The notes: generated from the letters alone by a model not told the origin. DNA of 64,000 nucleotides from Dehalococcoidia bacterium (GCA_963668185.1 OY764162.1:2660478-2724477), one strand, 5' to 3'. Positions 2,772-51,850 are shown, counted from the first letter of the stretch. Program-made: numbers and translations.

Positions 2772-3092
2772 TTCCGTTCATGGTTCGACAGGCTCGCCAC
2801 GAACGGAACGGAGCGCTGGCTCGCCACGAACGGTCCGGGCAACATAACAGACTCGCTCTAAGGCGTCTCTCATTGACAGTCCTAGATTCTTCGCTGCGCT
2901 AGGAATGACAGTGGGCCGCGAGCGCCTGCCCTGTGGCGGGGGGGCCTCGGTGTAGGGGCCGTTCGCAAAGAGCCTGCCCCGAGTCCCTCGAGGGGGCCGC
3001 GCGCGCCCACTGCCATTCCGAGTCCCCCGAGAGCCTGCCCAGATCCCCTCTAGTCCCTTCCCCAGTCTGCTGGGGAAGGTTAGGATGGGGTC
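2772..3092. repeat. Composite cluster of four palindromic repeat families
   Basis: CCGTTCATGGTTCGACAGGCTCGCCACGAACGG type; reversed GTCATTCC type (about 2880-2915); GTAG hairpin at 2952 carrying a 24-bp insert; CCCTTCCCCAGTCTGCTGGGGAAGG type at about 3056. Confidence 0.85.
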
Positions 3093-3136
3093 TCCGGCGC
3101 ACGAGCACGCAAGCGCCGCCCACGAGGAGGCCCCGC

Positions 3137-5074
3137 ATGACCCGCACCCCAACTCCAACCGAGTTCCTGAACTTCCAGACCGTCTCAGACCCCCAGATCA
3201 CGCCGGACGGCGAAGCCGTCGCGTTCACGGTCTCCGAGCCGCTCATACACGACACCGCGCTGCCGAAGTCGTCCGTCTGGCTCGTGTCCACGGACGGCGG
3301 CGGCCCGCGCCGGCTCACTGCCGACGGCGCGACCTCGTTCGCGCCGCGATGGTCGCCGGACGGCGGGACGCTCGCCCTCATCTCGGACCGGGAGCGCGAC
3401 GGTCAGCCGCAGATCTATCTCATGCCCCGGCGCTTCGGCGAAGCCGTGCGGTTCACCGACATGCGCGGCGGCGTGTTCGGCGGCGCGCGCGGCGTCAGCC
3501 CGATGGCATGGTCGCCGGACGGCTCGAAGCTCGCGTTCATGGCCGACGACCCGATCGCCGAGGGCGACAAGCGCCGCGGCTTCCGCGGCCAGGACCCGGT
3601 CGAGTTCGAGAAGGCGCCGTCTTACACGCGCCTGTACACCGTCGACGCTTCCACCGGCGAGGTCGGGTGCGTATCGCCGCCGGGCCTGCAGGTCTGGGAG
3701 TTCGCGTGGTCGAACGACGGCTCGCGCTTCGCCGCCTCCGTCACGGACCTGCCCTTCGAGTCGGACTGGTACCTGTGCCGCCTCGCCGTCTTCGCGCCCG
3801 GCGGCCCCGCGACCACGCTGTACGACGAGGAGCGCGCCGTCTCCGCCCCGTCGTGGTCGCCGGACGACAGCCGGGTCGCCTTCACGTCGTCCCACTGGAG
3901 CGACAAGTACGCCCAGCGCGGCGGTGTCTTCATCGTCCCGTCCGCCGGCGGCCCGCACCGCGAGGTCACGGAGGGCCACCCCCACACGTACGGCTGGATA
4001 CGGTGGTCTGAGGACGGCAAAGAGCTCCTGCTGTCCGGCTCGCTCGGCAGCAAGTACGGCCTCGTGCGCGTCGGCCTCGACACCGGCGACTACGAGAAGG
4101 TGTGGTCGGAGCTGTGCACGTTCGGCGAGGCCAGCTACCCCGCCCTCACGGTGGACGGCGCGGGCCGCATCGCCCTCGTGAAGGAGGACTCCGGCAGCCC
4201 GCGCGACGTCTGGCTCGCCGCGCCCGAAAACGGCGGCTTCGCCATGACGCAACTCACGAACATGAACCCCAGCGCCGCCGACCTGGACATCGGCGTCACC
4301 GAGGAGATCATCTACGAGGGCGCGGACGGCTGGGAGATGCAGGCCTTCCTGATCAGGCCGAAAGACGCGCCCGCGGGCACGCCGCTGCCGATGATCGTGG
4401 ACATCCACGGCGGCCCCTCCGGCGCGCACCAGAACTCGTACGCGCCCGCCTCACCCTTCAACCACGCCGAGGCGCTGGCCGCTCTCGGCTACGCCGTCCT
4501 CAAGCCGAACCCGCGCGGCAGCAACGGCTGGGGCCTGGAGTTCACCGAAAGCAACCTCGGAGACCAGGGCGGCAAGGACTGGCAGGACATCATGCTCGGC
4601 ATAGACCACTGCGTCGAGCGGGGCATCGCCGACCCGGACCGCCTCGGCGTCACCGGCAACAGCTACGGCGGGTACATGACGATGTGGGCCGTCACGCAGA
4701 CCGGCCGCTTCAAGGCCGCCGTCGCAGGCATGGGCATCAGCGAGTGGCGCAGCTTCCACGGCGTCACCGAGATCCAGAACTGGAACACGATCTACTACGC
4801 CCACGAAGACCAGTACGACCCCGACGGCAAGTACCGCGCGTTCGCCCCGCTCGCCCACATCGACAACGTGACCACGCCCACGCTGGTACTGCACGGCGAA
4901 GTGGACCACGTCTGCCCGGTGGACCAGGCCCGCCAGTTCTACCGCGCGCTCAAGGACAAGCGCGTCGAGGTCTCGCTGTGCGTCTATCCCCGCGAACCCC
5001 ACGGCTGGCGCGAACGCGAGCACATGCGCGACATCGCAAACCGCACCGTGCGCTGGCTGGCGGAGCGGGTGTAG
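3137..5074 (+). CDS. S9 family peptidase (acylaminoacyl/dipeptidyl peptidase-like, beta-propeller plus hydrolase)
   Basis: PD40-like WSPDG repeats, IHGGP, NPRGS, nucleophile GNSYGG, terminal Asp/His (VDHVC, EPHG); start at ATG 3137 after GAGGAGG. Confidence 0.92.
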   Translation: MTRTPTPTEFLNFQTVSDPQITPDGEAVAFTVSEPLIHDTALPKSSVWLVSTDGGGPRRLTADGATSFAPRWSPDGGTLALISDRERDGQPQIYLMPRRFGEAVRFTDMRGGVFGGARGVSPMAWSPDGSKLAFMADDPIAEGDKRRGFRGQDPVEFEKAPSYTRLYTVDASTGEVGCVSPPGLQVWEFAWSNDGSRFAASVTDLPFESDWYLCRLAVFAPGGPATTLYDEERAVSAPSWSPDDSRVAFTSSHWSDKYAQRGGVFIVPSAGGPHREVTEGHPHTYGWIRWSEDGKELLLSGSLGSKYGLVRVGLDTGDYEKVWSELCTFGEASYPALTVDGAGRIALVKEDSGSPRDVWLAAPENGGFAMTQLTNMNPSAADLDIGVTEEIIYEGADGWEMQAFLIRPKDAPAGTPLPMIVDIHGGPSGAHQNSYAPASPFNHAEALAALGYAVLKPNPRGSNGWGLEFTESNLGDQGGKDWQDIMLGIDHCVERGIADPDRLGVTGNSYGGYMTMWAVTQTGRFKAAVAGMGISEWRSFHGVTEIQNWNTIYYAHEDQYDPDGKYRAFAPLAHIDNVTTPTLVLHGEVDHVCPVDQARQFYRALKDKRVEVSLCVYPREPHGWREREHMRDIANRTVRWLAERV

Positions 5075-5087
5075 GCAGGAGACACCC

Positions 5088-6653
5088 ATGGCAACTTACG
5101 ACACCATCGTCATCGGCGCGGGCTCCGCCGGCGCCATCATCGCCGCGCGGCTGTCCGAGGACGCAGGCCGCTCCGTGCTCCTCATCGAGGCCGGCCCGGA
5201 CCACCCCGACTTCGAGACCATCCCCAGCCACATCAAGTACGGCTACGGCCATGAAGAGCGGGCGTGGGCCAAGATTCTCGGCCCCGGCTCTGAGCACAAC
5301 TGGCGCTACACCGCCAGGTCCACCGACCTTGCCGAGCCTATGCCCGTGCCCAGGGGGAAGGCCACCGGAGGCTCCAGCGCCGTCAACGCCCAGATCTTCC
5401 TGCGCGGCGTGCCGGAGGACTACGACTCCTGGGCCGAGATGGGCAACGACGAATGGAGCTTCCGCGACCTCCTGCCCTACTTCCGCATGAACGAGACGGA
5501 CCTGGACTTCCGGGACGACTTCCACGGCGCGGACGGCCCGATCATCGCCAGGCGCTTCCCGGAAGACGAGTGGACCTACGACCAAACCGCCTTCTACAGG
5601 GCCTGCCTCGCCGCCGGCTACCGGGACTGCCCCGACCACAACGACCCCGACTCCACCGGCGTCGGCCCGTCCCCGTTCAACAACCCCAACGGCGTCCGAT
5701 GGAGCACCGCGATCGGGTACCTTGGCCCCGCGCGGCACCGCGTTAACCTGACGATCCGCCCCGAATGCTTCGTGCACGGCCTGATCGTCGAAGGCAACAG
5801 GGCCGTCGGCGCACGGGTGGAGAGCGGCGGCGAGCTGTTCGAGGTCCACGGCAACGAGATCGTCCTCAGCGCCGGCGCAATCGGCTCTCCCCACCTTCTC
5901 CTATTGTCCGGCGTCGGCCCGGCCGCCAACCTCGAGTCCGCCGGCGTCCCGGTCGTCCGCGATCTGCCCGGCGTAGGCCGCAACCTCCGCGACCACCCGC
6001 AGGTGTCGGTGCTGTGGAAGACGAAGGACGATTACAGGATGGACGCGGCCGGGCCCTATATCCAGCAGATTCTGCGTTACACCGCCGAAGGCTCGCACCT
6101 GCGAAACGACATGCTGATCATCGCGCTGTCGGCGGCCACTCGCGCTCAATACTTCGCCGACGATTTGGAACCTTTCGGCATCGGCATGATCTGCTCCCTG
6201 TACCTCGCTGCGGGAGCGGGACGCCTCGAACTTGCCTCGCCAGACCCGCACACGCAGCCCATGCTCGACTACAACTTCCTCGAAGAGGAGTTCGACCGCC
6301 GCCGCCTGCGCGAGGCGGTACGCATCTGCCTGGACCTCGCCCAACACGACGAAATCGCCGGCATAATCGAGGAGCGTTTCCAGCCCACAGACGCGGACCT
6401 GGAGTCGGACGACGCGCTCGACGAGTGGCTGCTGCGCCAGGCCACCACAAGCCACCACGTCTCCGGCACCTGCAAGATGGGGCCCGCCTCCGACCCCCTG
6501 GCCGTAGTCGATCAGCGCGGCAACGTCCACGGCATCGAAAACCTGCGCGTCGCCGACGCCTCCATCATGCCGGACTGCATCCGGGCCAACACTAACGTAA
6601 CATCCATGGTCATCGGCGAACGCATCGCCGACTGCATCCGGCAGGGCAAGTAG
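5088..6653 (+). CDS. GMC family oxidoreductase (choline dehydrogenase-like)
   Basis: GAGSAG FAD motif, PRGKATGGSSAVN, GVGRNLRDHP, HVSGTCKMG, LRVADASIMP. Confidence 0.93.
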   Translation: MATYDTIVIGAGSAGAIIAARLSEDAGRSVLLIEAGPDHPDFETIPSHIKYGYGHEERAWAKILGPGSEHNWRYTARSTDLAEPMPVPRGKATGGSSAVNAQIFLRGVPEDYDSWAEMGNDEWSFRDLLPYFRMNETDLDFRDDFHGADGPIIARRFPEDEWTYDQTAFYRACLAAGYRDCPDHNDPDSTGVGPSPFNNPNGVRWSTAIGYLGPARHRVNLTIRPECFVHGLIVEGNRAVGARVESGGELFEVHGNEIVLSAGAIGSPHLLLLSGVGPAANLESAGVPVVRDLPGVGRNLRDHPQVSVLWKTKDDYRMDAAGPYIQQILRYTAEGSHLRNDMLIIALSAATRAQYFADDLEPFGIGMICSLYLAAGAGRLELASPDPHTQPMLDYNFLEEEFDRRRLREAVRICLDLAQHDEIAGIIEERFQPTDADLESDDALDEWLLRQATTSHHVSGTCKMGPASDPLAVVDQRGNVHGIENLRVADASIMPDCIRANTNVTSMVIGERIADCIRQGK

Positions 6654-6662
6654 CTCCGCCCC

Positions 6663-7045: not shown

Positions 7046-7247
7046 CCTCACTGTCATTTCGAGTCCCTCGAGGAATCTAGGACGCCCCGCACTCCACCAA
7101 CGGCTTTCCTGGCGGCAAGCCACGCATTCGGCCAGGACAGGACGCATTCGGCAACGGCGCGTTTTGGATTCCCTTCGAGGGACTCAGGGCAGGCTCTCTC
7201 TCGATTCGCTCGATCGGAATGACAGGAGACGCGAGACAACAGCAATG
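7046..7247. repeat. About 200-bp REP-doublet-like leader, copy 1
   Basis: Bounded by CTGTCATTTCGAG and GGAATGACAG; closely similar to 11107-11306; ends at a lipoprotein start codon. Confidence 0.85.
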
Positions 7248-9134
7248 ACACATCGCGGCTACGTAGCGAGGTTACTATGTCTCTATCTGCCGACCCTCGT
7301 GTCCTGTGTGCTGTTGGCCGTTGTGTCCGCGTGCGGCACGGGCGACAGTGCGGTTTCTGGCGTCGAAACACCGGATCCTACAGCTACGGTTGAGATTGAG
7401 GACAACGCTGCGGTGGTCGGGGACATGATCATCCTCACGCCCACGGTTGAAGTTGAGGACGACAGCGACAGCGCGGCTTCCGGCGTTACGCCTGTCCCCA
7501 CACCGACGGCTGAGAACATATATCAACCTGTGAACGACGTCAGCGCGTTCGCAAGCGACACACCGACGGCTGAGGCCGATTCTTCGGCGGGGTATGACGT
7601 ATACATCAGCGGTGAATGGCTTGTGCCGCCCTCGCTGGATGAGCAGATCTTCATGTCGGACACGATCGTGCGGGCGACGCTGAAGTCTGCGACTTCGACG
7701 ACGGTGACTGCCCCAAGCGAGGGCGATGGATCGGTGTCATACCTGTCCGTGCATGAGTTGCGGTTCACGGTCCATGAGTACCTGAAGGGCAGTGGCCCAT
7801 CCGAAATACTAGTGGTTGCGCGGGGTGGCGACTATGGTAACGAAGCGTACGCGACGGTTGCGAAGGCGCGCGAGGCGGCGGACTGGACCATGTCACAACG
7901 AACCACGACGTGGGATGATCGCCAGGGAGTGCTCTTCCTGATGACGCTTGATGGTAGGGCGTTTTGGGACGGTACGCCAAGCCCGTACCATACCCAGTAT
8001 GTTCCGACCACTCCCGGGGGCGGCTCGGCATCATCAGCGACGACCACAGCGTTTGCGATATACACGGGCGCTCCTTACGAAGAGTGGTGGGTCTACACTG
8101 TCGATACGCTCAGCCGCGGGTGGCTGCCTATGGGATCTGCTCCGGCGGGCGGCAGCCCCGACAACGCGTCGGGAGCGGCCAGCGTATCGTTCATCGAGGA
8201 CGGTTCGAAGACACCGTATTCTACGGTCACGCTGGGGGAGATTCGCACCAAGATAACCGAGATGGCGGCCACACTGAAGGCGGGGGAGGGTATCGCCAGA
8301 TACCGTGAGTGCGTTCATCATAAGATTGGGCGGGAGCGGATGCGCCGGGCATACCCATGGACGCCGAAACAGTACGAGGCGACGCTGGCCTCCGGTTTGG
8401 CCGCAGGAACAGAAGCGTACAGAAGAAGAGATGGGGGTGAGCCAAAGCACCCGCTCTTCTACGTAACCGGCACGGACAAAGACTACTTTCAGGCCCCCAT
8501 CGTCGATGAGGACTCAGACCCGTACAACGGGTTCTTTCGCACGCTTTCCACCACGCGGCCACTGCTCGCAGGGACGTACAGCGTCAAGCATAACGTACAG
8601 GATTACGGGCAGGTACCCTGCAACTTCAAGCCGGACGATGCGTACTCTGAGTGGACAGTGACGGTCACCGCCCCCTCCGGCACGGTGCACGAGGCGTTCT
8701 TCGACCCGGCGTCCACGTTCCTGGGCGTCGGCGCGAGCGGGGGCGCGGGCGTGATCTCTCCCGCGTCGTTCAACGTCGGCGGCGCGACCACCACGATCAC
8801 GCGGATAGTAGTGTCGTTTGGCAGCATGGTCTCCATGCAGATATCGCCGTCCGTGTCGCTGTCCGGCAAGCACGTCGAGTTCATCAAGGTGGACGGCACA
8901 GTGGCCGCGAGGCTCTCGTTCGATAAGGGGGACCTTGGCGGCGGCATCGGCATCGACGGGGCCGGCGCAGGCAACGGCACCAGCACAGCGGAGTCGGCGG
9001 TGTCGGCGCAAGCGCAAGCGCAGATAGCCGCCGCGCTGGCCGAGGCGCAGGCCACGGGAAGCAAGATGTACTTCTGGTTCGTATCCAGCGCCCCGTGGAA
9101 GGCGGGGGACAAGCTGATGCTGCGCATACGGTAG
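7245..9134 (+). CDS. Lipoprotein of unknown function, paralog P1
   Basis: Signal peptide with lipobox VSAC; T/P/D/E-rich stalk; conserved SLDEQI, HELRF and HEAFFDP motifs and C-terminal WKAGDKLMLRIR. Confidence 0.85.
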   Translation: MTHRGYVARLLCLYLPTLVSCVLLAVVSACGTGDSAVSGVETPDPTATVEIEDNAAVVGDMIILTPTVEVEDDSDSAASGVTPVPTPTAENIYQPVNDVSAFASDTPTAEADSSAGYDVYISGEWLVPPSLDEQIFMSDTIVRATLKSATSTTVTAPSEGDGSVSYLSVHELRFTVHEYLKGSGPSEILVVARGGDYGNEAYATVAKAREAADWTMSQRTTTWDDRQGVLFLMTLDGRAFWDGTPSPYHTQYVPTTPGGGSASSATTTAFAIYTGAPYEEWWVYTVDTLSRGWLPMGSAPAGGSPDNASGAASVSFIEDGSKTPYSTVTLGEIRTKITEMAATLKAGEGIARYRECVHHKIGRERMRRAYPWTPKQYEATLASGLAAGTEAYRRRDGGEPKHPLFYVTGTDKDYFQAPIVDEDSDPYNGFFRTLSTTRPLLAGTYSVKHNVQDYGQVPCNFKPDDAYSEWTVTVTAPSGTVHEAFFDPASTFLGVGASGGAGVISPASFNVGGATTTITRIVVSFGSMVSMQISPSVSLSGKHVEFIKVDGTVAARLSFDKGDLGGGIGIDGAGAGNGTSTAESAVSAQAQAQIAAALAEAQATGSKMYFWFVSSAPWKAGDKLMLRIR

Positions 9135-9179: not shown

Positions 9180-11012
9180 GTGATGGACCACGGGCGGTAC
9201 ATTCCGGCGATGATCGCGGCCTGCGCACTGCTCGTCATCGTAACTGCATGCGGCACGAATGGCGACGACAGGGCGGTGGTCACACCCACGGCTGCGATTA
9301 AGGGCAATGGGACAACTATCGGCAGTTCAATCGACCCCACACCGACGGCTGATGCTGAGGAAAACGCCACAGAGGCTGGGAACTCGGTTGTCCCCACACC
9401 AACGGCTGATGCTGGTGGAGAGGCCGTAAGTTCGATCGAACCGATGCCAACCCCCATTGACATTGACCAGCTTCTGGCCGAGTTGTTTGCGAGCGACAAC
9501 ATCTCAGAATTAGAGACTTCGGGAGCCGTTACAGTGTCCCATAATCCGGCATGGAGTGTGCCGCCCTCGTTGGATGAGCAGATCTACTATTCGGATGTTA
9601 TCGCGCGCGCGTCGCTGAAATCTGCAACTTCGACGACAGAGAAAGTTGTCGGAGGGTATCAACCCGTGCATGAGTTGCGGTTCATCGTCCACGAGTACCT
9701 GAAGGGCAGCGGACCGTCCGAAATCCTGGTGGTCGCGCGCGGCGACGAGGACACGTACAAGACTGTCACGAAAGCACACGAAGTCGCTGGCTATACCATG
9801 TCTCGTCGAACCACAACGTGGGACAACCGTCAAGGTGTGCTCTTCCTGAGGACGCTCGACGGTTCGTCGAGATTTGTAGCTAGGTACGCCTCTGCAAACG
9901 CAACCGGAGCGGCGACCACCACGGCGTTTGCGATGTACTCGGGCGCCCCTTACGAAGGATGGTGGGAGCACACTGTCGATACGTTGAGCCGCGGGTGGTT
10001 GCCAGCAGGGGATGCCGCAGGTGGGAACTTGGAAGGTGGGGCGTCGGGCGCGTCCAGCGTGGTGTTCATCGAGGACGGCTCGAAGACGCCGTACTCCACG
10101 GTCACGTTAGGAGAGCTTAAGACCAAGATATCCGAGATGACGGCCACGCTGAAGGCAGGGAAGGACATTGCGGGGTACGAGGAGTGCATACGTCGCATGA
10201 TTGCGGGGGAGCGGAATTATCGCGCGACCAAGTGGGAACCACTGCAAATGAAAGTGTCTCTGGCTTCCGGTTCGTCGACCGGTACCGAGATCTTCAGGAG
10301 GAGAGATAACGATCGTGAACCGAAGTATCTAATTTACTACGTGACCGGCGCGGACAAGGACTACTTCCAGGCCCCCATCGTCGACGAGGACTCAGACTCG
10401 TCCAACGGGTACTTCTATACGCTCTCCACCACTCGCCCACTGCCCGCAGGGACGTACAACATCAAGCATCATCTGCGAAGTCCATGGCAGGTACCATGCA
10501 ACTTCAAGCCGGATCGCTCCAACTATGCGCAGTGGACGGTAACGGTCACCGCGCCGTCCGGCACGGTGCACGAGGCGTTCTTCGACCCGGCGTCTACGTC
10601 CCTCGGCGTCGGCGCGAGCGGCGGCGCGGGCGTCATCTCCCCGGCGTCGTTCAACGCCGGCGGCGCGACCACCACGATCACCCGGATCATAGTGTCGTTC
10701 GGCAGCATGGTCACCATGCAGATATCGCCGTCCGTGTCGCTGTCCGGCAAGCACGTCGAGTTCATCAAGGTGGACGGCACCATGGCGGCAAGGTTCTCGT
10801 TCGATAAGGGGGACCTGGGTGGCGGCATCGGCATCGACGGGTCCGGCGCTGGCAACGGCACCAGCACGGCGGCGGCGGTGACGGCGGAGGCGCAAGCGCA
10901 GATAGCGGCGGCGATGGCCGAAGCCCAGGCCACGGGAAGCAAGATGTACTTCTGGTTCGTGTCCAGCGCCCCGTGGCAGGCCGGGGATAAGCTGATGCTG
11001 CGGATACGGTAG
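9180..11012 (+). CDS. Lipoprotein of unknown function, paralog P2
   Basis: Lipobox VTAC; same architecture and near-identical C-terminal domain as P1. Confidence 0.85.
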   Translation: MMDHGRYIPAMIAACALLVIVTACGTNGDDRAVVTPTAAIKGNGTTIGSSIDPTPTADAEENATEAGNSVVPTPTADAGGEAVSSIEPMPTPIDIDQLLAELFASDNISELETSGAVTVSHNPAWSVPPSLDEQIYYSDVIARASLKSATSTTEKVVGGYQPVHELRFIVHEYLKGSGPSEILVVARGDEDTYKTVTKAHEVAGYTMSRRTTTWDNRQGVLFLRTLDGSSRFVARYASANATGAATTTAFAMYSGAPYEGWWEHTVDTLSRGWLPAGDAAGGNLEGGASGASSVVFIEDGSKTPYSTVTLGELKTKISEMTATLKAGKDIAGYEECIRRMIAGERNYRATKWEPLQMKVSLASGSSTGTEIFRRRDNDREPKYLIYYVTGADKDYFQAPIVDEDSDSSNGYFYTLSTTRPLPAGTYNIKHHLRSPWQVPCNFKPDRSNYAQWTVTVTAPSGTVHEAFFDPASTSLGVGASGGAGVISPASFNAGGATTTITRIIVSFGSMVTMQISPSVSLSGKHVEFIKVDGTMAARFSFDKGDLGGGIGIDGSGAGNGTSTAAAVTAEAQAQIAAAMAEAQATGSKMYFWFVSSAPWQAGDKLMLRIR

Positions 11013-11106
11013 GGGCCCATCTCAATCCTTCGAGGGACTCAGGGCATGCCTTCCCCAGCAGACTGGGGAAGAGGAGGGAGTCATGCTGCGGATACGGTAG
11101 GGGCGG

Positions 11107-11306
11107 CCTCACTGTCATTTCGAGCGCAGCGAGAAATCTTGGACCTCCCGCATGCCGCCAACCCCCGTCCCCGGCAAACCGCGCATTCGGCCAGGCCAGG
11201 ACGCATTCGGCAACAGGGCGTCTTGGATTCCCTTCGAGGGACTCAGGGCAGGCTCTCTCTCGCTTCGCTCGATCGGAATGACAGGGGGCGCGAGACAACA
11301 GCAATG
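11107..11306. repeat. About 200-bp REP-doublet-like leader, copy 2
   Basis: Homologous to 7046-7247, including the nested CTTCGAGGGACTCAGGGCAGGCTC module. Confidence 0.85.
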
Positions 11307-13127
11307 AAACGTTGCGGTTACGTCATCAGATTGCGGCGTTCTATCCTGCCGCCCCTCGCGTCCTGTGCGCTGTTGCTCATTGCCGCCGCGTGCGGTATGG
11401 GCGATAGTATGGTTTCTGACGGCGCAACACCAGTTCCTACAGCTACGGCTGAGGTTGAGGACGACGCCGGAGTGACCGGGGACACGATCGTCCCCACGCC
11501 TGTGGCTGAGGTTGAGGACGACAACGCAGCTTCCAGCGCAACACCTGTTCCCACACCGTCAACTGAAGCTGTGAACGAGAACGAGACTGAAGTGGACTCA
11601 GATGAAGTGTACGTGTACAGCGGAGGCCATACGCTCAAGAACCCCGCATGGTCTGTGCATCCCTCGCTGGACGAGCAGATCTTCAGGTCGGATGTGATCG
11701 TGCGTGCGACGTTGAAGTCGGCGACCTCGACGACGGAGAAGGTTGTTGGAGGATATAGGGCCGTGCATGAGTTGCGGTTCACCGTCCACGAGTACCTGAA
11801 GGGAAGCGGACCTTCCGAAATCCTGGTGGTCGTACGCGATAAGGAGGATGAGTACTCGCCGGACAGGTACGCCACAATAGCGAAGGCGCAGGAGGTGGCT
11901 GACAGTACCATGTCCCGTCGAAACACGGCCTGGGACGGACGCCAGGGGGTACTCTTCCTGAGTAAGCTTGATGGTTCCGGATATCTTGCTCGATATGCCG
12001 CTGCCACGTCCACGGCGTTTGCGATACGCACGGGTGCCCCTTACGAAGCGTGGTGGGACTACTCGGTCGATACGCTGAGCCGCGGGTGGCTGCCCGCGGA
12101 GAAGGCAGGCGGAAGCTCGGAAGGCGGGGCGTCGGGTGCGGCCAGTGTGGCGTTCGTCTCGGGTGGCTCCGGGTTCGTCACTGCCGGCGGCTCGATGACA
12201 GCGTACTCTACTGTCACTTCGTGGGAAATCAAGTCACGCATAGCCCAGATGGCGGCCACGCTGAAGGCCGGGCATGGCATCGCCGGGTACAGAGAGTGCA
12301 TTAACAACAAGATCACGCGGGAGCGTGTGTATCGCGCCAGAGTATCGTGGGCACCGACACAGTACACAGCGACGCTGCCCTCCGGTTCGGCGACAGGAAC
12401 AGAGGTGTATAGGAAACGGAAGACGTCCGCAGAGCCGAAGTACATCCAGTACTATGTGACCGGCGCGGACAAAGACCACTTCCATGCCCCGATCGTTGAT
12501 GAGGACTCCAGTGCGTATAACGGGTACTTCCGCACGCTTACCATCGCACGCCCGCTGCCAGCAGGCACGTACAGCGTCAAGTATCACATGTGGCATTTCG
12601 ACTATTTTCCTTGTAATTACAAGCCGGATAACAACTACTCGGAATGGACCGTAACGGTCACCGCGCCCTCCGGCACGGTACATGAGGCGTTCTTCGACCC
12701 GGCGTCTACGTCCCTCGGCATCGGGGCTAGCGGCGGTCAGGGCACCGTCTCCCCGGCGTCGTTCAACGTCGGCGGCGCGACTACCACGATCACGCGGATA
12801 GTAGTGTCGCTCGGCAGCATGGTGTCCATGTCGGTATCGCCGTCCGTGTCGCTGTCCGGCAAGCACGTCGAGTTCATCAAGGTGGACGGCACCATGGCGG
12901 CAAGGCTCTCGTTCGACGCGGGGGACCTCAAGGGCGGCATCGGCATCGGCGGGGCCGGCTCCGACACAGGCACCAGCACGGCGGAGGCGGGGGTGTCGGC
13001 GGAGGCGCACGCGGAGATAGCCGCGGCGATGGCGGAGGCGCAGGCCACGGGAAGCAAGATGTACTTCTGGTTCGTGTCCAGCGCCCCGTGGAAGGCGGGG
13101 GACAAGCTCATGCTGCGGATCCGGTAG
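11304..13127 (+). CDS. Lipoprotein of unknown function, paralog P3
   Basis: Start at ATG 11304 by homology to the P1 leader; lipobox AAAC; same architecture. Confidence 0.85.
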   Translation: MKRCGYVIRLRRSILPPLASCALLLIAAACGMGDSMVSDGATPVPTATAEVEDDAGVTGDTIVPTPVAEVEDDNAASSATPVPTPSTEAVNENETEVDSDEVYVYSGGHTLKNPAWSVHPSLDEQIFRSDVIVRATLKSATSTTEKVVGGYRAVHELRFTVHEYLKGSGPSEILVVVRDKEDEYSPDRYATIAKAQEVADSTMSRRNTAWDGRQGVLFLSKLDGSGYLARYAAATSTAFAIRTGAPYEAWWDYSVDTLSRGWLPAEKAGGSSEGGASGAASVAFVSGGSGFVTAGGSMTAYSTVTSWEIKSRIAQMAATLKAGHGIAGYRECINNKITRERVYRARVSWAPTQYTATLPSGSATGTEVYRKRKTSAEPKYIQYYVTGADKDHFHAPIVDEDSSAYNGYFRTLTIARPLPAGTYSVKYHMWHFDYFPCNYKPDNNYSEWTVTVTAPSGTVHEAFFDPASTSLGIGASGGQGTVSPASFNVGGATTTITRIVVSLGSMVSMSVSPSVSLSGKHVEFIKVDGTMAARLSFDAGDLKGGIGIGGAGSDTGTSTAEAGVSAEAHAEIAAAMAEAQATGSKMYFWFVSSAPWKAGDKLMLRIR

Positions 13128-13209: not shown

Positions 13210-14988
13210 ATGCTCTACATGCGGCACATTCTGGCGGCGACCGTGTGCTGTGCCCTAGTGGTTGCCATAGCTGCGTGCGGCACGGACGCCGATGGCGCCA
13301 CGCCTGCCGCTGGCGTCGAGGCTGGCCCAGCCTCGCCTAGCTCCACTTTCGCCACACCCACGGCTGAAGTCGAGGCAGATGAGGGTACTTCAGAGAGTTC
13401 GGTGATCTATTCGCCAGCCCCGTATGATGAAAGCGAGTCCTCTTCAGCGGACCCAGACGATGATGAGGGCGAGACTGAAGTGTACCAAACCCACGCACAC
13501 CGGAGCCCAGCGTCCTTTGCCTCGGCCTCGCTGGATGAGCAGATATACTATTCGGACGTGATAGCGCGCGCGACGCTGAAGTCGGCGACTTCGACGGCAG
13601 AGACTGTCCTTGGCGAAGGCGGCTCTGCCGCCACGTATCGGCCCGTGCAGGAGCTTCGATTCACCGTACACGAGTACCTGAAGGGAAGGGGGCAGTCCGA
13701 GGTATTGGTTGTCGTGCGTGGGGACAGGACGTACGCAACTGCCGCGACGGCGCGCGAGGAGGTGGACTTTGCCATGTTGTTCCGAAACACGACCTGGGAC
13801 AACCGCCAGGGAGTGCTCTTCCTGAGGACGCTCGACGGTTCGTCTAGATTTGTGGCTCGGTACACCTCTGCCAACGCAACCGGAGCAGCGACCACTTCCG
13901 CATTCGCGATGTACACGGGCTCCACTTACGAAGAGTGGTGGGACTATACCGTCGATGGGCTCAGCCGCGGGTGGCTGCCCGCCGGAGACGCTGCGGCATC
14001 TGGAAGCTCGGACGGGGTATCGGGCGCGGCCAGCGTGTCGTTCATAGAGGACGGCTCGGAGACGCCGTACTCTACAGTCACGTTGGGGAAGCTTAAGACC
14101 AAGATAGCTGAGATGGCGGCCACGCTGAAGGCCGGCGAGGGCATCGCAGGGTACGAAGAGTGCATGAAGATAAGATTTCGGCGTGAGAGGATACGCCGCA
14201 TAAATCCATGGACACCGCTTCAGTACAAGGCGACGCTGGCCTCCGGTTCGGCGACCGGGACAGAGGTCTTCAGAGAACGGAAAACCACTCCAGAGCCGAA
14301 GTATCTCCACTACTACGTGACCGGCGCTGACAAGGACTACTTCCAAGCCCCCATCGTCGATGAGGACTCAGACCCGTACAACGGGTACTTCCGCACGCTC
14401 TCCACCACCCGCCCACTGCCAGCAGGGACGTACAGCGTCAAGTTTAACTTACAGCATTACAAACACTTCCCCTGTAACTTCAAGCCGGATGACGCGTACG
14501 ATCAGTGGACGGTAACGGTCACCGCCCCCTCCGGCACGGTGCATGAGGCGTTCTTCGATCCGGCGTCCACGTTCTTGGGCGTCGGCGCGAGCGGCGGCGC
14601 GGGCGTCATCTCCCCCGCGTCCTTCAACGTCGGCGGCGCGACCGCCACGATCACGCGGATAGTAGTGTCGTTCGGCAGCATGGTCTCCATGCAGATATCG
14701 CCGTCCGTCTCGCTGTCCGGCAAGCACATCGAGTTCATCAAGGTGGACGGCACAGTGGCGGCAAGGCTCTCGTTCGATAAGGGGGACCTCAAGGGCGGCA
14801 TCGGCATCGGCGGGGCCAGCGCTGGCAACGGCACCAGCACGGCGGAGGCGGCGGTGTCGGCGGCGGCGCACGCGGAGATAGCCGCGGCAATGGCCGAGGC
14901 GCAGGCCACGGGAAGCAAGATGTACTTCTGGTTCGTGTCCAGCGCCCCGTGGAAGGCGGGGGACAAGCTCATGCTCCGTATCCGGTGA
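13210..14988 (+). CDS. Lipoprotein of unknown function, paralog P4
   Basis: Lipobox IAAC; same architecture. Confidence 0.85.
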   Translation: MLYMRHILAATVCCALVVAIAACGTDADGATPAAGVEAGPASPSSTFATPTAEVEADEGTSESSVIYSPAPYDESESSSADPDDDEGETEVYQTHAHRSPASFASASLDEQIYYSDVIARATLKSATSTAETVLGEGGSAATYRPVQELRFTVHEYLKGRGQSEVLVVVRGDRTYATAATAREEVDFAMLFRNTTWDNRQGVLFLRTLDGSSRFVARYTSANATGAATTSAFAMYTGSTYEEWWDYTVDGLSRGWLPAGDAAASGSSDGVSGAASVSFIEDGSETPYSTVTLGKLKTKIAEMAATLKAGEGIAGYEECMKIRFRRERIRRINPWTPLQYKATLASGSATGTEVFRERKTTPEPKYLHYYVTGADKDYFQAPIVDEDSDPYNGYFRTLSTTRPLPAGTYSVKFNLQHYKHFPCNFKPDDAYDQWTVTVTAPSGTVHEAFFDPASTFLGVGASGGAGVISPASFNVGGATATITRIVVSFGSMVSMQISPSVSLSGKHIEFIKVDGTVAARLSFDKGDLKGGIGIGGASAGNGTSTAEAAVSAAAHAEIAAAMAEAQATGSKMYFWFVSSAPWKAGDKLMLRIR

Positions 14989-14989
14989 G

Positions 14990-15130
14990 GCCCCATCTCA
15001 ATCTTCCCCAGCAGACTGGGGAAGAGGCCAGAGGCCCCACCCGGGCCACCCCTTGATTCCGGCCTTCGCCGGAATGACGATGGGGATAGGAGATTGGCGG
15101 TAGGCTCCAGCAGACTGGGGAAGGGGGCAG
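14990..15130. repeat. Repeat cluster between P4 and the ThDP gene
   Basis: Reversed CTTCCCCAGTCTGCTGGGGAAG copies (about 15004 and 15106) and reversed CGTCATTCCGGCGAAGGCCGGAATC (about 15055-15080). Confidence 0.75.
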
Positions 15131-41765: not shown

Positions 41766-41862
41766 GCTGCCCCTCCATAGTGCTAGGATAGCACACACCG
41801 CCGCGCCCGCCGGGGCAGTGCCAGGGTCTTTTCGTTTTCCGTTCGCCCTTGTATCTTGACTA

Positions 41863-41990
41863 TCCCTTCTCCCTTGAGAGCCTGCCCTGAGTCTGTCCAA
41901 GGGGTGAGAGCAAAAGTCCCTTCCCCAGTCTGCTGGGGAAGGCTAGGATGGGGTTTCCCCTCACCGTTCGCCCTGAACTTGTCGAAGGGC
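41863..41990. repeat. Composite repeat cluster
   Basis: Hairpin with nested 24-bp module (41878-41901), CCCTTCCCCAG type (41918), CCGTTCGCCCTGAACTTGTCGAAGGG (41964). Confidence 0.8.
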
Positions 41991-49072: not shown

Positions 49073-49122
49073 ATCAATCACCTCGCCTTCCGTCAAACAA
49101 ACCGCGGCCCAATCCAAAAACC

Positions 49123-49222: not shown

Positions 49223-49308
49223 AGGGGCCGGGGGAACTCCGCCTCTGCTAAACTCCGTAGATATCCTATTGGCAGCTAGGTACGTCTGCCAACAAAGGAA
49301 AGCAAACC

Positions 49309-50265
49309 ATGACCAGTGTAGTAGAACTCGCAAACATCGAGAATGTCGATATTCGCCGTGCTTGGCCCAACGAAGCTTCGAACTTCACCCCATGGCTCGC
49401 CGAGAACCTCGACAGGCTGGGCAACGCCTTGGGCTTGGAATTGGAACTGCTGGGCCGGGAGGCAGAGGTAGGACCATTCAAGCTGGACATCCTCGCCCAG
49501 GAGACTGGCACTAATCGCAAAGTGATAGTCGAGAACCAACTTGAGATTACTGATCATAGTCATCTCGGACAGTTGCTCACATACGCCTCAGGGTACGATG
49601 CTAAGGTTATCGTATGGGTAGCTGGTCAGTTTAAGGACGAGTACCGCCAAGCCCTGGACTGGCTGAATCAGCTATCGCCAGAGGACATCGAGTTCTTCGG
49701 AGTCGTTGTCGAACTTTGGCAAATTGGAGATTCTGCGCCTGCTCCGCACTTCAAAGTCATCTCATCACCCAACGACTGGCAAAAGGACTGGCAAAAGGGC
49801 AGGATGAGCCCAACTTCTGCCCCGTCGGAACGCAACGAACGCTATCGCAGATTCTTCCAAGACCTTATCGATACCCTAAGGCAAGAACACGGATTCACGA
49901 ATGCGCGAAAGGGGCAGCCACAGAATTGGTATACCTTTTCGTCTGGCGTCAGCGGATTCAATTACTCAACTTTCTTTGCATCTGACAATATGGCTAAGGT
50001 AGGAATCTACATCGACTGTGGCCAGAAGGAGCAGAATGAGGAGTACTTCGAGCAATTGAGGGAGCAGCAGGATTCGTTGGGCACGACCTTCGACGAACCG
50101 CTGCAATGGCTCAGACTGGACAATCGACGAGCATGCAGGATCGTGGTTCAAACTCCCGGTAGCATTGACGACGACGATGAAGCTCTAAATCACATCCACG
50201 ACTGGATGATCCAGAACGTCATGAGGTTCAAAACTGTCTTCGGTCCCAAGCTAAGCGAACTCTAG
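49309..50265 (+). CDS. DUF4268-domain protein with PD-(D/E)xK-like N-terminal domain
   Basis: FTPWLAEN, LDILA...VIVENQL..TDHSHLGQLLTYA, C-terminal PQNW, GIYID, L.W.RLD; lower GC. Confidence 0.8.
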   Translation: MTSVVELANIENVDIRRAWPNEASNFTPWLAENLDRLGNALGLELELLGREAEVGPFKLDILAQETGTNRKVIVENQLEITDHSHLGQLLTYASGYDAKVIVWVAGQFKDEYRQALDWLNQLSPEDIEFFGVVVELWQIGDSAPAPHFKVISSPNDWQKDWQKGRMSPTSAPSERNERYRRFFQDLIDTLRQEHGFTNARKGQPQNWYTFSSGVSGFNYSTFFASDNMAKVGIYIDCGQKEQNEEYFEQLREQQDSLGTTFDEPLQWLRLDNRRACRIVVQTPGSIDDDDEALNHIHDWMIQNVMRFKTVFGPKLSEL

Positions 50266-50281
50266 TCACAGCCCACCACGT

Positions 50282-50465
50282 GCAGGGGGCGCTTCGCGAA
50301 GCCCCCGCCCTCTCCAGAACCCCGTCATTCCGGCATTCACGCGCCAGCGTGAACCGGGGCCAGCCGGAATCCAGCAGGGCGGGCGGGGCCACCGCCCTTC
50401 CTCCTGTCATTCCGATCGAGCGAAGCAGCCCTCTGTCGTTCCGAGTCCCCCGAGGAACCTACAGC
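50282..50465. repeat. Composite repeat cluster with branched CGTC hairpin
   Basis: GCAG/GTAG-type hairpin, branched hairpin 50323-50374, CTGTCATTCCGATCGAG and GAGTCCCCCGAGG pieces. Confidence 0.8.
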
Positions 50466-50560
50466 CTCACGCCCTCCACAAACGCCCGCCCCCATCAACC
50501 AACCGCCCGTCCGCTCCCCACTCGCCACTATTCACTATCCACCATCCACTCCCCCTCCCC

Positions 50561-50589
50561 TTGACACACTGGTACGCGCCCGCTATCCT
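50561..50589 (+). promoter_or_regulatory. Sigma70-type promoter, probably leaderless transcript
   Basis: TTGACA, 17-bp spacer, TATCCT; ATG 7 nt after the -10 at 50597. Confidence 0.7.
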
Positions 50590-50596
50590 AGAACCC

Positions 50597-51850
50597 ATGG
50601 ATACCGGAGCGCACACCATATCACCAATACAACGCATCGTCCGAGAAGAAACCGACGACGGCAGACTCATCGTCCGTTTCCTAGTCGCCGCCATGCAGGA
50701 CCAGATCCGCGGCGCCAAGCCCTACCACAGGCTAGACGCCGCGCGCCAACTCATCAAACTCGGCTTCGAAGAAGCCAAAGAGTTCGCCTCCATCAAACCC
50801 CTTCCCCAGTCTGGCGGAGCCTGCCCCGAGTCCCTCGAGGGGGAAGGACGGGATGGGGCTCCCACAGACACCCTCGACACCACCGGCCTAAACCCCGACC
50901 TCGCACGCTTCATACGAGCCGAGACCGACGGAGGACGTCAAGCCATACGATTCCTCATAGACGTCATGCTAGGCTTCATGCCCGGCTTCGGCCCCCACCA
51001 CCGCATAGACGCCGCCAAAGAACTGCTGCGCCGAGGCTTCGACGACGCACCCGGCCCCCTAGACCACGACACCTACGCCGACGCAGAACTAAACCCCCTT
51101 CCCCAGTCTGCTGGAGCCTCCCTCAAACCCCTTCCCCAGTCCGCTGGAGCCTCCCTCAAACCCCTTCCCCAGTCTGCTGGGGAAGGCCGGGATGGGGTTC
51201 CCGACATCCTAGCCGGCTACGAACCCCCGTACTCCAACACATACGGCCACAGCGGAGACACCGGCTTCGACAATCGAGCCGTCTCCAAAGCGACAGACGC
51301 CCTGCTGGACGCCGTCGGCAGGCGCCCGACGCCCCCGGACCCCAGAGTCGTTTACCCCTCCAAACGCGGCAGCATCATCATACACAACGGAGAGGAGCAC
51401 TACTTCAGCGAACACGCCCGGCCGGCCGTCGAAAGGTCCATAGCGGCCGGCGAAATCATAGACGCGGTCAAGCGCATCCGCGAATCATGCCGCGGCCCCA
51501 TCCGCATCGCGTGCCGCCACGGCACAGCATCCTGCGACTGCGAATCCGACCCCTGGGCCGAACACCCCAACGACCCGCACGCCCCCGGCGCCGAACCCCC
51601 CGACGGCTCACCCGACCCGTCTGACCCCTTCCCCAGTCTGCTGGGGAAGGCCGGGATGGGGTCCTCCGACAACCCCTCCGTCATTCCCGCGAAGGCGGGA
51701 ATCCATCCGCCCGAACCCGCCGAAGTCGAACCCGACCCGTCTGACCCCTTCCCCAGTCTGCTGGGGAAGGCCGGGATGGGGTCGGCCGGCGCGTCTCACA
51801 CCGAACCCGCCGATGACCCACCCGCCACCCCGGCAGAAAACCCGCCCTGA
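50597..51850 (+). CDS. Hypothetical protein with duplicated helical domain and in-frame repeat insertions
   Basis: Two copies of RxETDxGRxxxRFL...HRxDAAxxLxxxGF; repeat-derived peptides KPLPQSAG, PFPSLLGKAGMG, ACPESLEG, VIPAKAGIH. Confidence 0.65.
   Translation: MDTGAHTISPIQRIVREETDDGRLIVRFLVAAMQDQIRGAKPYHRLDAARQLIKLGFEEAKEFASIKPLPQSGGACPESLEGEGRDGAPTDTLDTTGLNPDLARFIRAETDGGRQAIRFLIDVMLGFMPGFGPHHRIDAAKELLRRGFDDAPGPLDHDTYADAELNPLPQSAGASLKPLPQSAGASLKPLPQSAGEGRDGVPDILAGYEPPYSNTYGHSGDTGFDNRAVSKATDALLDAVGRRPTPPDPRVVYPSKRGSIIIHNGEEHYFSEHARPAVERSIAAGEIIDAVKRIRESCRGPIRIACRHGTASCDCESDPWAEHPNDPHAPGAEPPDGSPDPSDPFPSLLGKAGMGSSDNPSVIPAKAGIHPPEPAEVEPDPSDPFPSLLGKAGMGSAGASHTEPADDPPATPAENPP

What the first reader, a model, noticed from the sequence alone, without database searches (positions are those of the whole stretch)
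2970..50840. A 23-24 bp module nested inside other palindromic repeats, with a filled/empty site pair
GAGCCTGCCC(C/T)GAGTCCCTCGA(G/A)G occurs at 2970-2993, 7173-7196 (rev), 11028-11050 (rev, 23 bp), 11232-11255 (rev), 41878-41901 (variant) and 50817-50840. Each copy interrupts the stem of another repeat, and at least three host families are involved (GTAG, GTCATT, CCCTTCCCC). After P4 the site reads CCCATCTCAATC|TTCCCCAGCAGAC (14992-15016), whereas after P2 the same site carries the insert. No target duplication is evident. At 50817 the 24 bp keep the reading frame (ACPESLEG). Inference: a minimal element that targets hairpin DNA, mobilised in trans.
Basis: partly seen in the sequence, partly recalled or inferred. 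Interest (0 to 1): 0.72.

Follow-up and report, generated by a model that had tools for sequence, protein, structure and literature searches.

The report
24-base insert nested in hairpin repeats
A 24-base DNA unit occurs about 90 times in this Dehalococcoidia genome as an exact insertion inside other short palindromic repeats; this makes it a rare ultra-small mobile element, and how it is copied is unknown.

Summary
GAGCCTG[CT]CC[CT]GAGTCCCTCGA[AG]G occurs 6 times in the window (0 expected) and about 92 times in the 2.78-Mb genome. Its edges are sharp, and the flanks are otherwise unrelated.

About 90% of copies lie inside other short palindromic repeats, in at least 9 host contexts. They sit at a purine|GG step, usually where the host loop meets its 3' arm, and always in one orientation relative to the host. 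No target duplication is seen.

Exact 24-bp filled/empty pairs exist in three settings: among dispersed repeat copies, among about 21 paralogues of a 1.4-kb gene, and at orthologous loci of sister species. All four genomes of the genus carry the element. One sister species holds the identical 24-mer in diverged copies of a different host family.

It therefore behaves as a discrete, trans-dependent insertion unit. The closest analogue is Elhai's 'small dispersed repeats' of Nostocaceae.

The enzyme is unknown. RAYT/Y1-HUH genes are absent from two of the four carrier genomes. IS110-type elements, present in all four, insert into the same host repeats, but their CT-core signature does not fit the module's junctions.

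The parts
2970..2993 (+). Module copy, C..G subtype (GAGCCTGCCCCGAGTCCCTCGAGG). It sits in a GTAG-type host (D'): GTGTAGGGGCCGTTCGCAAA | module | GGGCCGCGC.
3031..3051 (+). Degenerate or truncated module (GAGCCTGCCCAGATCCCCTCT). It follows the 5' half of a FamE hairpin (CATTCCGAGTCCCCCGA|) and abuts a FamA repeat.
   Evidence: read directly from the and output
3052..3092 (+). Empty FamA repeat (AGTCCCTTCCCCAGTCTGCTGGGGAA|GGTTA|GGATGGGGTC) upstream of the S9 peptidase gene. At the same place in the three sister genomes, the sequence next to the FamA tail is a sibling module or its remains (G001: GAGCCTGTCCTGAGCGAAGCCGAAG; G003 and G002 more degenerate).
7173..7196 (-). Module copy, T..A subtype, at the loop/3'-arm junction of an E2 hairpin (host 7166-7225, minus strand): GTCATTCC-GATCGAGCGAATCGAGAGA | module | GGAATCC. 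It lies in the 5' leader upstream of lipoprotein paralogue P1.
11028..11051 (-). 23-nt variant (AGGCATGCCCTGAGTCCCTCGAAG) inside the FamA' repeat after P2 (host 11015-11074). This is the filled state.
11232..11255 (-). Module copy, T..A subtype, in the E2 hairpin upstream of P3 (host 11225-11284). It is paralogous to the 7173 copy.
14989..15027 (-). Empty FamA' repeat after P4 (CCTCTTCCCCAGTCTGCTGGGGAAG|ATTGAGATGGGGCC on the minus strand). It is the empty twin of the P2 site.
   Evidence: 42 genomic matches to the exact 12+12 joined flanks
41878..41901 (+). Diverged module (GAGCCTGCCCTGAGTCTGTCCAAG) between CCCTTCTCCCTTGA and GGGTGAGAG (F-like host). At 41839-41863, just upstream, is CCGTTCGCCCT+TGTATCTTGACTAT. 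That string is a FamB 5' half joined to what looks like the left end of an IS110-family element.
50817..50840 (+). Module copy, C..G subtype, in the loop region of a FamA repeat (A-pos3). It is in frame (ACPESLEG) within the multicopy gene X.
50597..51850 (+). Gene X, one of about 21 paralogues. It has no Pfam or NCBIfam match. Its linker regions carry in-frame FamA, FamC and module insertions. The paralogue alignment supplies the clearest filled/empty comparisons.

Best explanation
The 24-mer is a non-autonomous, ultra-small insertion module. Its anatomy is a 7-nt head, GAGCCTG, followed by a small hairpin: stem YCCY, an 11-nt loop GAGTCCCTCGA, then RG. The stem is completed by the GG of the target.

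The hairpin belongs to a genome-wide superfamily in which 5-bp stems covary around conserved 11-nt loops. Host families B and E belong to the same superfamily.

Shown: the unit is added as exactly 24 nt (23 in one variant), without target duplication, at a purine|GG step. That step lies at the loop/3'-arm junction or in the 3' tail of other palindromic repeats. The orientation relative to the host is always the same.

Inferred: it is copied from existing copies and placed by a trans-acting, sequence- or structure-specific DNA strand-transfer activity. That activity probably acts on single-stranded or extruded hairpin DNA.

Once inside a host family, the module also spreads passively, with host-repeat amplification and by gene conversion between repeat copies.

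The enzyme is not identified. Y1-HUH (RAYT) is unlikely. IS110-type recombinases that use the same repeats as targets are the only candidate seen in all four carrier genomes, and that link is weak.
For: Discreteness: sharp edges and unrelated flanks, and 81 independent loci judged by distal flanks.

Exactness: 25 of 91 copies have exact 12+12 empty twins, with the insert length always 24, or 23 for the variant.

Many hosts: A-pos1, A-pos2, A-pos3, A', B, C, D', E, E2, plus the D head and family F.

Junction rule: position -1 is A in 70 copies and G in 20; +1 is G in 86 of 91; +2 is G in 69 and A in 22.

Paralogues: in the ~21 X copies, homologous flanks extend well beyond the host repeat while the 24 nt are present or absent. 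This holds at several sites. One FamA copy shows three states: empty, pos3-filled and pos1-filled.

Orthologues: G003 is filled and G000 empty at a locus where the neighbouring FamC and FamA' are conserved. A second case involves FamB.

Species spread: the element occurs in 4 of 4 genomes of the genus, with 77, 24, 47 and 21 copies, and in 0 of 35 other genomes of the order. G017 has only a fixed relative.

Key point: in G002 the identical master 24-mer sits in many mutually diverged copies of another host family (F), with no co-conversion of the adjacent host bases.

Superfamily stem covariation, including G.T pairs, is shown.
Against: No enzyme was found. RAYT-like genes and gene X both have the wrong phyletic pattern.

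Module subtype correlates with host class. T..A occurs in A-pos1, A-pos2, A' and E2; C..G occurs in A-pos3, B, D' and E. So a limited number of founding insertions, followed by spread as composites, could explain much of the copy number.

Filled and empty states are scattered over the X paralogue tree. This shows that gene conversion moves the insert without transposition.

Chimeric copies exist, with the left half of one host and the right half of another.

The module's own hairpin is no more stable than shuffled sequence (z = -0.8 and +0.2).

No population-level polymorphism data exist. In G017 and in 7 metagenome contigs the sequence is a fixed part of one larger repeat.
Confidence: 0.55

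Rival explanations
1. No dedicated enzyme is involved. The 24 nt are copied from another repeat by replication template switching, or microhomology-mediated repair, at stalled hairpins. The shared ...GA(A)|G... and ...GARG|GG microhomologies guide the two switches.
For: The left flank plus the first module base usually reads (C)GA(A)G, like the module's own 3' end CGARG. The base at -1 tends to equal position 23 (41 A/A and 16 G/G against 29 and 4; Fisher p = 0.0045). A-pos3 copies carry small extra changes in the host loop (CTGCTG to CTGGCG, CTGCG or CAGCG). Half-repeat stutters occur at the same places, such as the 33-nt FamA and 21-nt FamC 5'-arm arrays.
Against: Both ends are the same to the base in about 80 loci, 9 or more host contexts and 4 species. 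Only 1-4 nt of microhomology is available, and no donor-flank bases are carried along. Ectopic double template switches are not expected to be this uniform.
Confidence: 0.2
2. The unit is not independently mobile. A handful of ancient composite repeats (host plus module) were amplified as wholes. Homologous recombination or gene conversion between repeat copies then produced today's filled/empty pattern and the chimeras.
For: Subtype-host association. Scattered states on the X tree, and an identical rare variant (TCCGTCGAAG) at the same X site in three distant paralogues. Chimeric copies exist. The sequence is a fixed composite in G017 and in the metagenome contigs.
Against: It does not explain how the same 24 nt entered 9 or more unrelated hosts, and three different positions of FamA. 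In G002 identical modules lie in strongly diverged F-family copies whose adjacent bases differ, so conversion tracts that include host arms are excluded there. The host spectrum differs between sister species.
Confidence: 0.12
3. The module is mobilised, or originally generated, by the IS110-family (DEDD, bridge-RNA-guided) recombinases of these genomes. These recombinases use the same hairpin repeats as their insertion targets.
For: PF01548 is present in all four module-bearing genomes (2, 4, 11 and 3 copies).

The elements sit inside the host repeats, flanked by CT cores. The sites are: the FamA/F tail GGTT[AG]GATGG, which is the module's pos2 step within 1 nt (G002, 3 copies); FamB at GTTCGCC[CT]GAGCCTG; and the FamE tail at GGAAT[CT]CAGACG.

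The 7 nt immediately right of the FamB crossover are GAGCCTG. That is exactly the module's conserved head, which sibling modules share.
Against: The family also occurs in 9 genomes of the order that lack the module, and is absent from G017. The module junctions cannot be parsed as element plus duplicated CT/AG core (worked through). The module's joined ends (..CTCGARG|GAGCCTG..) do not resemble the IS donor junction (..ACAGTTG-CT-TGTATC..). A 24-bp double-stranded circle is physically implausible as a donor.
Confidence: 0.08
4. A REP-associated tyrosine transposase (RAYT, Y1 HUH) moves the module as single-stranded DNA.
For: Two RAYT-like ORFs are present (C1:1030279-1030989 and 2121588-2122136), both with HUH and Y motifs. 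Their best NCBIfam match is REP_Tyr_transpos, at E 2e-17 and 8e-16. Features that fit an ssDNA mechanism: no target duplication, fixed orientation, and an orientation bias of all repeat families that tracks regional GC skew.
Against: Neither gene is flanked by the module. RAYT2 is flanked by the GTAG-type FamD repeat. The module lacks a GTAG head. No Y1_Tnp match at all was found in G002 (47 copies, 21 identical to the master), G003 or G017. Homologues do occur in 7 genomes without the module.
Confidence: 0.05

Closest known systems
[quoted passage not shown] 2008, Genome Res 18:1484. The paper is not held in the library, so details are from memory plus PMC4390886 and PMC5861425.
   Same: Units of 21-27 nt, dispersed and hairpin-capable. 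They are found as precise insertions inside otherwise conserved sequence, including other repeats. SDR5 inserts between the 3rd and 4th base of the HIP1 palindrome (PMC4390886). Nesting occurs, there is no coding capacity, and the mechanism is unknown.
   Different: A different phylum (Dehalococcoidia, Chloroflexota). PMC5861425 states that no SDR-like repeat was found outside Nostocaceae among HIP1-rich cyanobacteria. The sequence is not known to be related to the SDRs (not compared; their sequences were not at hand). The target here is a purine|GG step at the loop/3'-arm junction of several REP-like families. The module is itself a member of the hosts' hairpin superfamily.
REP / REPIN elements with RAYT transposases (Nunvar 2010; Bertels and Rainey 2011, PMC3116915)
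   Same: Short GC-rich extragenic palindromes in hundreds of copies. A RAYT-like gene flanked by a GTAG-headed repeat (FamD) exists in this genome.
   Different: The module has no GTAG head and is not next to a RAYT. It is found in genomes without any Y1 transposase. It is an insert within repeats, not a stand-alone REP doublet.
Bacterial interspersed mosaic elements (BIMEs) of E. coli, and IS elements that target REPs (IS1397; IS621/IS110 family with bridge RNA, Durrant 2024 and Hiraizumi 2024, from memory)
   Same: Mosaic combination of short palindromic units and linker motifs. IS110-family elements insert site-specifically into the repeats, here with CT cores.
   Different: BIME motifs are not known to occur as exact present/absent 24-nt inserts within palindromic units. 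The module's junctions lack the CT-core signature.
Rickettsia palindromic elements (RPE), from memory
   Same: Palindromic repeats tolerated in frame inside protein-coding genes. Here 24 nt adds 8 residues to gene X.
   Different: RPEs are 100-150 bp. Most copies of this module are intergenic and nested in other repeats.

Membership tests
SDR-type very small mobile repeats (Elhai 2008) | Dispersed unit of about 21-27 nt with sharply defined ends | tested here: met
   24 nt. Information content collapses at both ends. About 92 copies.
SDR-type very small mobile repeats (Elhai 2008) | Occurs as a precise insertion within otherwise conserved sequence, including other repeats or palindromes, with empty counterparts | tested here: met
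   Exact empty twins, filled/empty paralogues, filled/empty orthologues.
SDR-type very small mobile repeats (Elhai 2008) | Hairpin potential | tested here: inconclusive
   The stem YCCY/RGGG covaries (41 C-G, 37 T-A, 4 T.G, 9 C.A), and superfamily stems covary. However, the folding energy is no better than shuffles.
SDR-type very small mobile repeats (Elhai 2008) | Sequence membership in SDR1-8, or occurrence in Nostocaceae | not tested
   The organism is a Dehalococcoidia MAG lineage, so it lies outside Nostocaceae. It is filed as 'works like', not as a member of those sequence families.
REP/REPIN-RAYT system | Conserved 5' GT[AG]G tetranucleotide preceding the palindrome | tested here: not met
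   The module starts GAGCCTG. GTAG belongs to host family D.
REP/REPIN-RAYT system | RAYT gene flanked by the repeat, and co-occurring with it across genomes | tested here: not met
   Flanks of both RAYT-like genes lack the module. No Y1_Tnp in G002, G003 or G017.
Classical MITE | Terminal inverted repeats and a target-site duplication | tested here: not met
   The ends GAGCCTG... and ...CTCGARG are not inverted repeats. There is no duplication, only 1-2 nt of boundary ambiguity.
IS110-family minimal derivative (bridge-RNA donor) | Identical core dinucleotide (CT) at both junctions, and ends resembling an IS110 LE/RE | tested here: not met
   IS copies show CT cores with TGTATC.../...ACAGTTG ends. 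The module junctions do not parse that way.
IS110-family minimal derivative (bridge-RNA donor) | Recombinase present wherever the module is present | tested here: inconclusive
   Present in G000-G003, absent from G017, which holds only a fixed relative. Also present in 9 module-free genomes.

The most novel reading that the evidence does not exclude
The module and its GAGCCTG-headed siblings are the donors of an unrecognised transposition chemistry. In this reading, a 24-nt single hairpin is excised or copied and then ligated into the loop/3'-arm junction of other DNA hairpins. The enzyme would be either not yet annotated as a transposase, or an IS110/bridge-RNA recombinase working on single-stranded mini-donors. 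That would make it the smallest defined mobile DNA unit, and a second, independent instance of the unexplained cyanobacterial SDR phenomenon.
Probability: 0.2. Interest if true: 0.85.

Novelty: new member of a known kind. Interest (0 to 1): 0.6.

Why it matters
Mobile units of about 24 nt have so far been described essentially once, as the SDRs of Nostocaceae in 2008, and their mechanism has never been solved. This report describes a second, unrelated lineage showing the same behaviour.

The material here may make that old question tractable by comparative genomics and biochemistry, for four reasons:
- Four single-contig genomes are available.
- The host spectra differ between sister species.
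- Filled/empty orthologues exist.
- A defined junction rule (purine|GG at hairpin loop/3'-arm junctions) is available.

The element also shows how short repeats remodel coding sequence (8-residue in-frame inserts in a 21-copy gene) and intergenic hairpins. It links these repeats to IS110-type, RNA-guided recombinases, which use them as landing sites.

Tried and rejected
1. RAYT/HUH driver: rejected on phyletic pattern and gene flanks.
2. Gene X as driver: it holds 26 module copies, but its distribution does not match. It is absent from G017, nearly absent from G001 and G002, and X-like N-terminal domains occur in the module-free G024 and G025. The enrichment is explained by its high density of host repeats.
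3. TnpB: not present in the genus.
4. Rfam: no family matches the window, the repeat array at 2700-3200, or the metagenome composite.
5. A replication-strand explanation of the module's 69:23 minus-strand bias. All repeat families co-vary in orientation with regional GC-skew sign, so the module's bias may simply be inherited from its hosts. The origin could not be placed: dnaA is at 1.946 Mb, while the skew extremes are near 0.08-1.26 Mb and 2.67 Mb.
6. A 2-nt core-duplication (IS110-like) parse of the junctions: it fails by one base.
7. An 11-mer-based 'inside repeats' metric was uninformative in this GC-rich genome. It was replaced by 14-mers.
9. Elhai 2008 could not be read.
10. A search for a larger parent element, with a module head and tail separated by cargo: none was evident.
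Full report
**Setting.** The window is C1:2660478-2724477 of a single-contig 2.78-Mb genome with 64% G+C. A sister genome of the same genus is a record titled 'MAG: Dehalococcoidia bacterium ... chromosome 1' (OZ220745.1). The organism is therefore an uncultured Dehalococcoidia (Chloroflexota) lineage.

The genome is crowded with short GC-rich palindromic repeats. For this report I named the families as follows:
- FamA: CCCTTCCCCAGTCTGCTGGGGAAGGnnnGGATGGGG, about 340 copies. Variant A' has the tail GATTGAGATGGGG. A related family F is CCCCTCTCCC..GGGAGAGGGCTAGGGTGAGGG.
- FamB: CCGTTCGCCCTGAGCCTGTCGAAGGGC, about 220 copies, with the variant GTGGT...ACCAT.
- FamC: CCGTCATTCCsGCGnAGGCsGGAATCCA, about 220 copies.
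- FamD: GTAGGGGCGCTTCGCGAAGCGCCCCTAC.
- FamE: CTGTCrTTCCGAGTCCCCCGAGGAAyCT.
- E2: GTCATTCCGATCGAGCGAAGCGAGAGAGGAATC.

Genome-wide there are 91 copies at <=4 mismatches. The nhmmer scores are bimodal: 92 hits reach 20 bits or more, a handful lie between 14 and 20, and below that come only FamB and FamE relatives.

The unit is discrete. Information content is high over the 24 positions and falls to background one or two bases outside. Pairwise identity is 86% inside the module and 35% in the neighbouring 24 nt. Judged by the distal flanks, the copies represent 81 independent loci.

**Where it sits.** 82 of 91 copies have at least one flank in a >=8-copy repeat (14-mer criterion). The figure is 16% for random intergenic points and 6% for random genomic points. 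The host contexts and their copy numbers are:

| Host context | Copies |
|---|---|
| FamA loop (A-pos3) | 18 |
| FamA 3' arm, GGGGAA\|GG (A-pos1) | 14 |
| FamA tail, GGyTA\|GGATGGGG (A-pos2) | 9 |
| FamB, GAGCCTGTCGAA\|GGGCC | 9 |
| FamE, CCCCCGA\|GGAAy | 7 |
| GTAG-type D', GTTCGCAA\|GGGCC | 7 |
| FamA' (23-nt variant) | 6 |
| E2 | 4 |
| FamC tetraloop, GCGAA\|GGCGGG | 2 |
| Other (mostly D head GTA\|GGGGC, family F, chimeras) | 15 |

The junction rule is simple. Position -1 is a purine (A 70, G 20), +1 is G (86 of 91), and +2 is a purine (G 69, A 22). In hosts B, C, E, E2 and A-pos3 this step is the boundary between the host loop and its 3' arm. The orientation relative to the host is invariant, and there is no target duplication.

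**Filled and empty sites.**
1. Dispersed copies. 25 of 91 copies have exact 12+12-nt joined-flank twins elsewhere in the genome. The inferred insert is always 24 nt (23 for the AGGCATG variant), with 1-2 nt of boundary ambiguity.
2. Paralogues. The ORF at 50597-51850 is one of about 21 copies of a 1.4-kb gene, called X here, that are 82-92% identical. In their alignment the 24 nt are present or absent at several sites, while homology continues on both sides well beyond the host repeat. At one FamA copy the paralogues show four states: empty, pos3-filled, pos1-filled, and a 33-nt half-repeat duplication. The reading frame is kept; the insert reads ACPESLEG or SLSRVPRG.
3. Orthologues. At a locus where the flanking genes, a FamC copy and a FamA' copy are all conserved, G003 is filled and G000 is empty. 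A FamB case is similar. Upstream of the S9 peptidase gene, G000 has an empty FamA. At the same place in the three sister genomes, the sequence next to the FamA tail is a sibling module or its remains (G001: GAGCCTGTCCTGAGCGAAGCCGAAG; G003 and G002 are more degenerate).

**Distribution.** The module is in all four genomes of the genus, with 77, 24, 47 and 21 copies at <=2 mismatches. It is in none of 35 other genomes of the order. One further genome (G017) has only a related sequence that is a fixed part of a FamB-like element, GCCCT-GAGCCTG-TCCTGAGGCTCTCGAAGGGGGAAA-TCGA-AGGGG.

In G002 the identical master sequence lies mostly in family F. The F copies involved differ from one another right up to the junction. 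It also occurs there in FamC, FamA and E2-like hosts, and directly after a sibling module. This is the strongest argument that the 24 nt arrive on their own, rather than by amplification or conversion of a host-plus-module composite.

Outside these genomes the exact 24-mer was found in only 7 metagenome contigs. There it is again nested at CGA|GGGA, but as a fixed part of one longer repeat. It was found in no viral contig.

**Anatomy.** The module reads GAGCCTG + YCCY + GAGTCCCTCGA + RG, followed by the target's GG. Genome-wide, 11-nt loops (GAGCCTGTCGA, GAGTCCCCCGA, GAGTCCCTCGA, GAGCCCGTCGA) are closed by at least six different 5-bp stems:
- GCCCT/AGGGC
- ATTCC/GGAAT
- GTGGT/ACCAT, with a G.T pair
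- GTGGT/ACCAC
- GTTCC/GGAAC
- GTCCT/AGGAT or AGGAC

Pairing and loop sequence are therefore what is conserved, and the module is a member of this superfamily. Within the module, positions 11 and 23 covary (41 C-G, 37 T-A, 4 T.G, 9 C.A), but this amounts to two subfamilies. The hairpin is not more stable than shuffled sequence.

Sibling modules share the head GAGCCTG but carry other hairpins, for example GAGCCTGCCCCGTACTCCGATACGG and GAGCCTGCCCTGAGCGCAGCCGAATG. They occupy the same kind of site.

**Mechanism.** What is shown is a discrete 24-nt gain or loss at purine|GG steps of hairpin repeats. It recurs in many hosts and species, with no duplication and a fixed orientation. What is inferred is how it is placed.

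A RAYT/Y1-HUH driver is unlikely. The two RAYT-like genes are not flanked by the module; one of them is flanked by the GTAG repeat FamD. G002, G003 and G017 have no Y1 transposase at all. Gene X and TnpB also fail the phyletic test.

IS110-family transposases are present in all four genomes. Their elements sit inside the same repeats, flanked by CT cores:
- in the FamA/F tail at GGTT[AG]GATGG, which is within 1 nt of the module's pos2 step;
- in FamB at GTTCGCC[CT]GAGCCTG, so the 7 nt right of the crossover are exactly the module's head;
- in the FamE tail.

This is a real lead, but three facts weigh against it. The family also occurs in nine module-free relatives. The module's junctions do not show a duplicated core. 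Its ends do not resemble the IS ends.

Gene conversion clearly moves the insert among copies of a host. States are scattered on the X tree, and an identical rare variant occurs in three distant paralogues. Subtype-host association and chimeric copies show that hitch-hiking and recombination contribute to the pattern.

I therefore commit to this reading: a trans-dependent, precise insertion of a defined 24-nt unit, followed by secondary spread through conversion and host amplification. I put it at about 0.55. Enzyme-free template switching is at about 0.2 and pure composite amplification at about 0.12.

**Comparison and novelty.** The behaviour matches Elhai's small dispersed repeats: 21-27 nt, and precise insertion into palindromes and other repeats. 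SDR5 enters HIP1 between bases 3 and 4 (PMC4390886). These have been reported only from Nostocaceae (PMC5861425). The element here is a new, unrelated instance in Chloroflexota, with a different target rule. It is not a REP/REPIN, a MITE or an IS200/IS605 derivative by their defining features.

**Limits.** The Elhai paper was not readable. The sister species are only about 85% identical in coding DNA, so few intergenic orthologies can be aligned. Gene calls were crude (GC3-based).

Noticed in passing
window 50597-51850 and about 20 other loci of the genome (e.g. C1:911781-913148, 2465716-2467651): A roughly 21-copy gene family (X, about 420 aa, 82-92% nt identity). It has two tandem ~55-aa N-terminal domains and a Cys-rich C-terminal domain, and no Pfam or NCBIfam match. 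Its linkers are built from in-frame repeat insertions (PLPQSAGEGRDG, PFPSLLGKAGMG, VIPAKAGIH, ACPESLEG). G003 has about 25 copies. Homologues of the N-terminal domain alone are multicopy in two other families of the order.
   Followed up: partly
G002:C1:375.4, 1738 and 2471 kb; G000 C1:146.4-147.6 kb and 2628.4-2629.6 kb; G003 2243 and 804 kb: IS110-family elements (left end TGTATCTTGG/TGTGTGATG..., right end ...ACAGTTG) are inserted with CT cores into FamA/F tails, into FamB (GTTCGCC-CT-GAGCCTG) and into the FamE tail (GGAAT-CT-CAGACG). It appears that related elements have been retargeted to different repeat families.
   Followed up: partly
window 41839-41863; also C1:189.6 kb: CCGTTCGCCCT+TGTATCTTGACTAT is a FamB 5' half fused to about 14 nt that match the IS110 left end, followed directly by a FamA or F repeat. 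It looks like a scar or recombination product of an IS110 event.
   Followed up: no
whole genome (200-kb bins): The orientation of all oriented repeat families co-varies regionally with the sign of GC skew (Fisher p = 1e-9 to 0.03). Switches lie near 0.4, 1.2 and 2.6 Mb. dnaA lies at 1.946 Mb, away from any switch. The cumulative-skew maximum, at about 2.67 Mb, falls inside this window.
   Followed up: partly
genome-wide FamC copies (e.g. flanks of gene X, window ~50323-50374 and 51888-51940): In about 35 copies the FamC tetraloop (GAAG, GCAG or GGAG) is replaced by a 29-nt inner hairpin with covarying stem (TTCACGC/GCGTGAA, TTCCTGC/GCAGGAA, TTTCCGC/GCGGAAA). Arrays of stacked 5' arms, with periods of 21-25 nt, also occur in front of a single loop and 3' arm.
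   Followed up: no
window 7245-9134, 9180-11012, ~11300-13127, 13210-14988: Four tandem paralogous lipoprotein genes (signal peptide plus a Cys lipobox). They have no Pfam family and highly conserved C-terminal halves. P1 and P3 share a long repeat-laden leader. Related leaders occur at C1:569 kb and 599 kb.
   Followed up: no
window 10995-11016 and 11083-11104: A 22-bp direct repeat (CCCCTACCGTATCCGCAGCAT on the minus strand) brackets the filled FamA' repeat after P2. The FamA' unit therefore looks like an insertion with a long duplication, or a recombination scar.
   Followed up: no
metagenome contigs Ga0187781_10375279, Ga0187783_10064062 and 5 others (L078-L084): The exact 24-mer is a fixed internal part of a different repeat of at least 150 nt (...CCATTCACCGAGGCCCGCGCGAAAATCGGGCGGGGTGGCGCGGTCCGA|module|GGGATCTCGGCGCCGG...GGTCCGGTTTTTTCTTGG). 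The source organism is unknown, and there is no Rfam match.
   Followed up: partly
C1:1030279-1030989(-) and C1:2121588-2122136(+): Two RAYT-like HUH/Y1 genes score below the NCBIfam cut-off. The second is flanked on both sides by GTAG-type FamD repeats, a classical REP-RAYT arrangement.
   Followed up: partly
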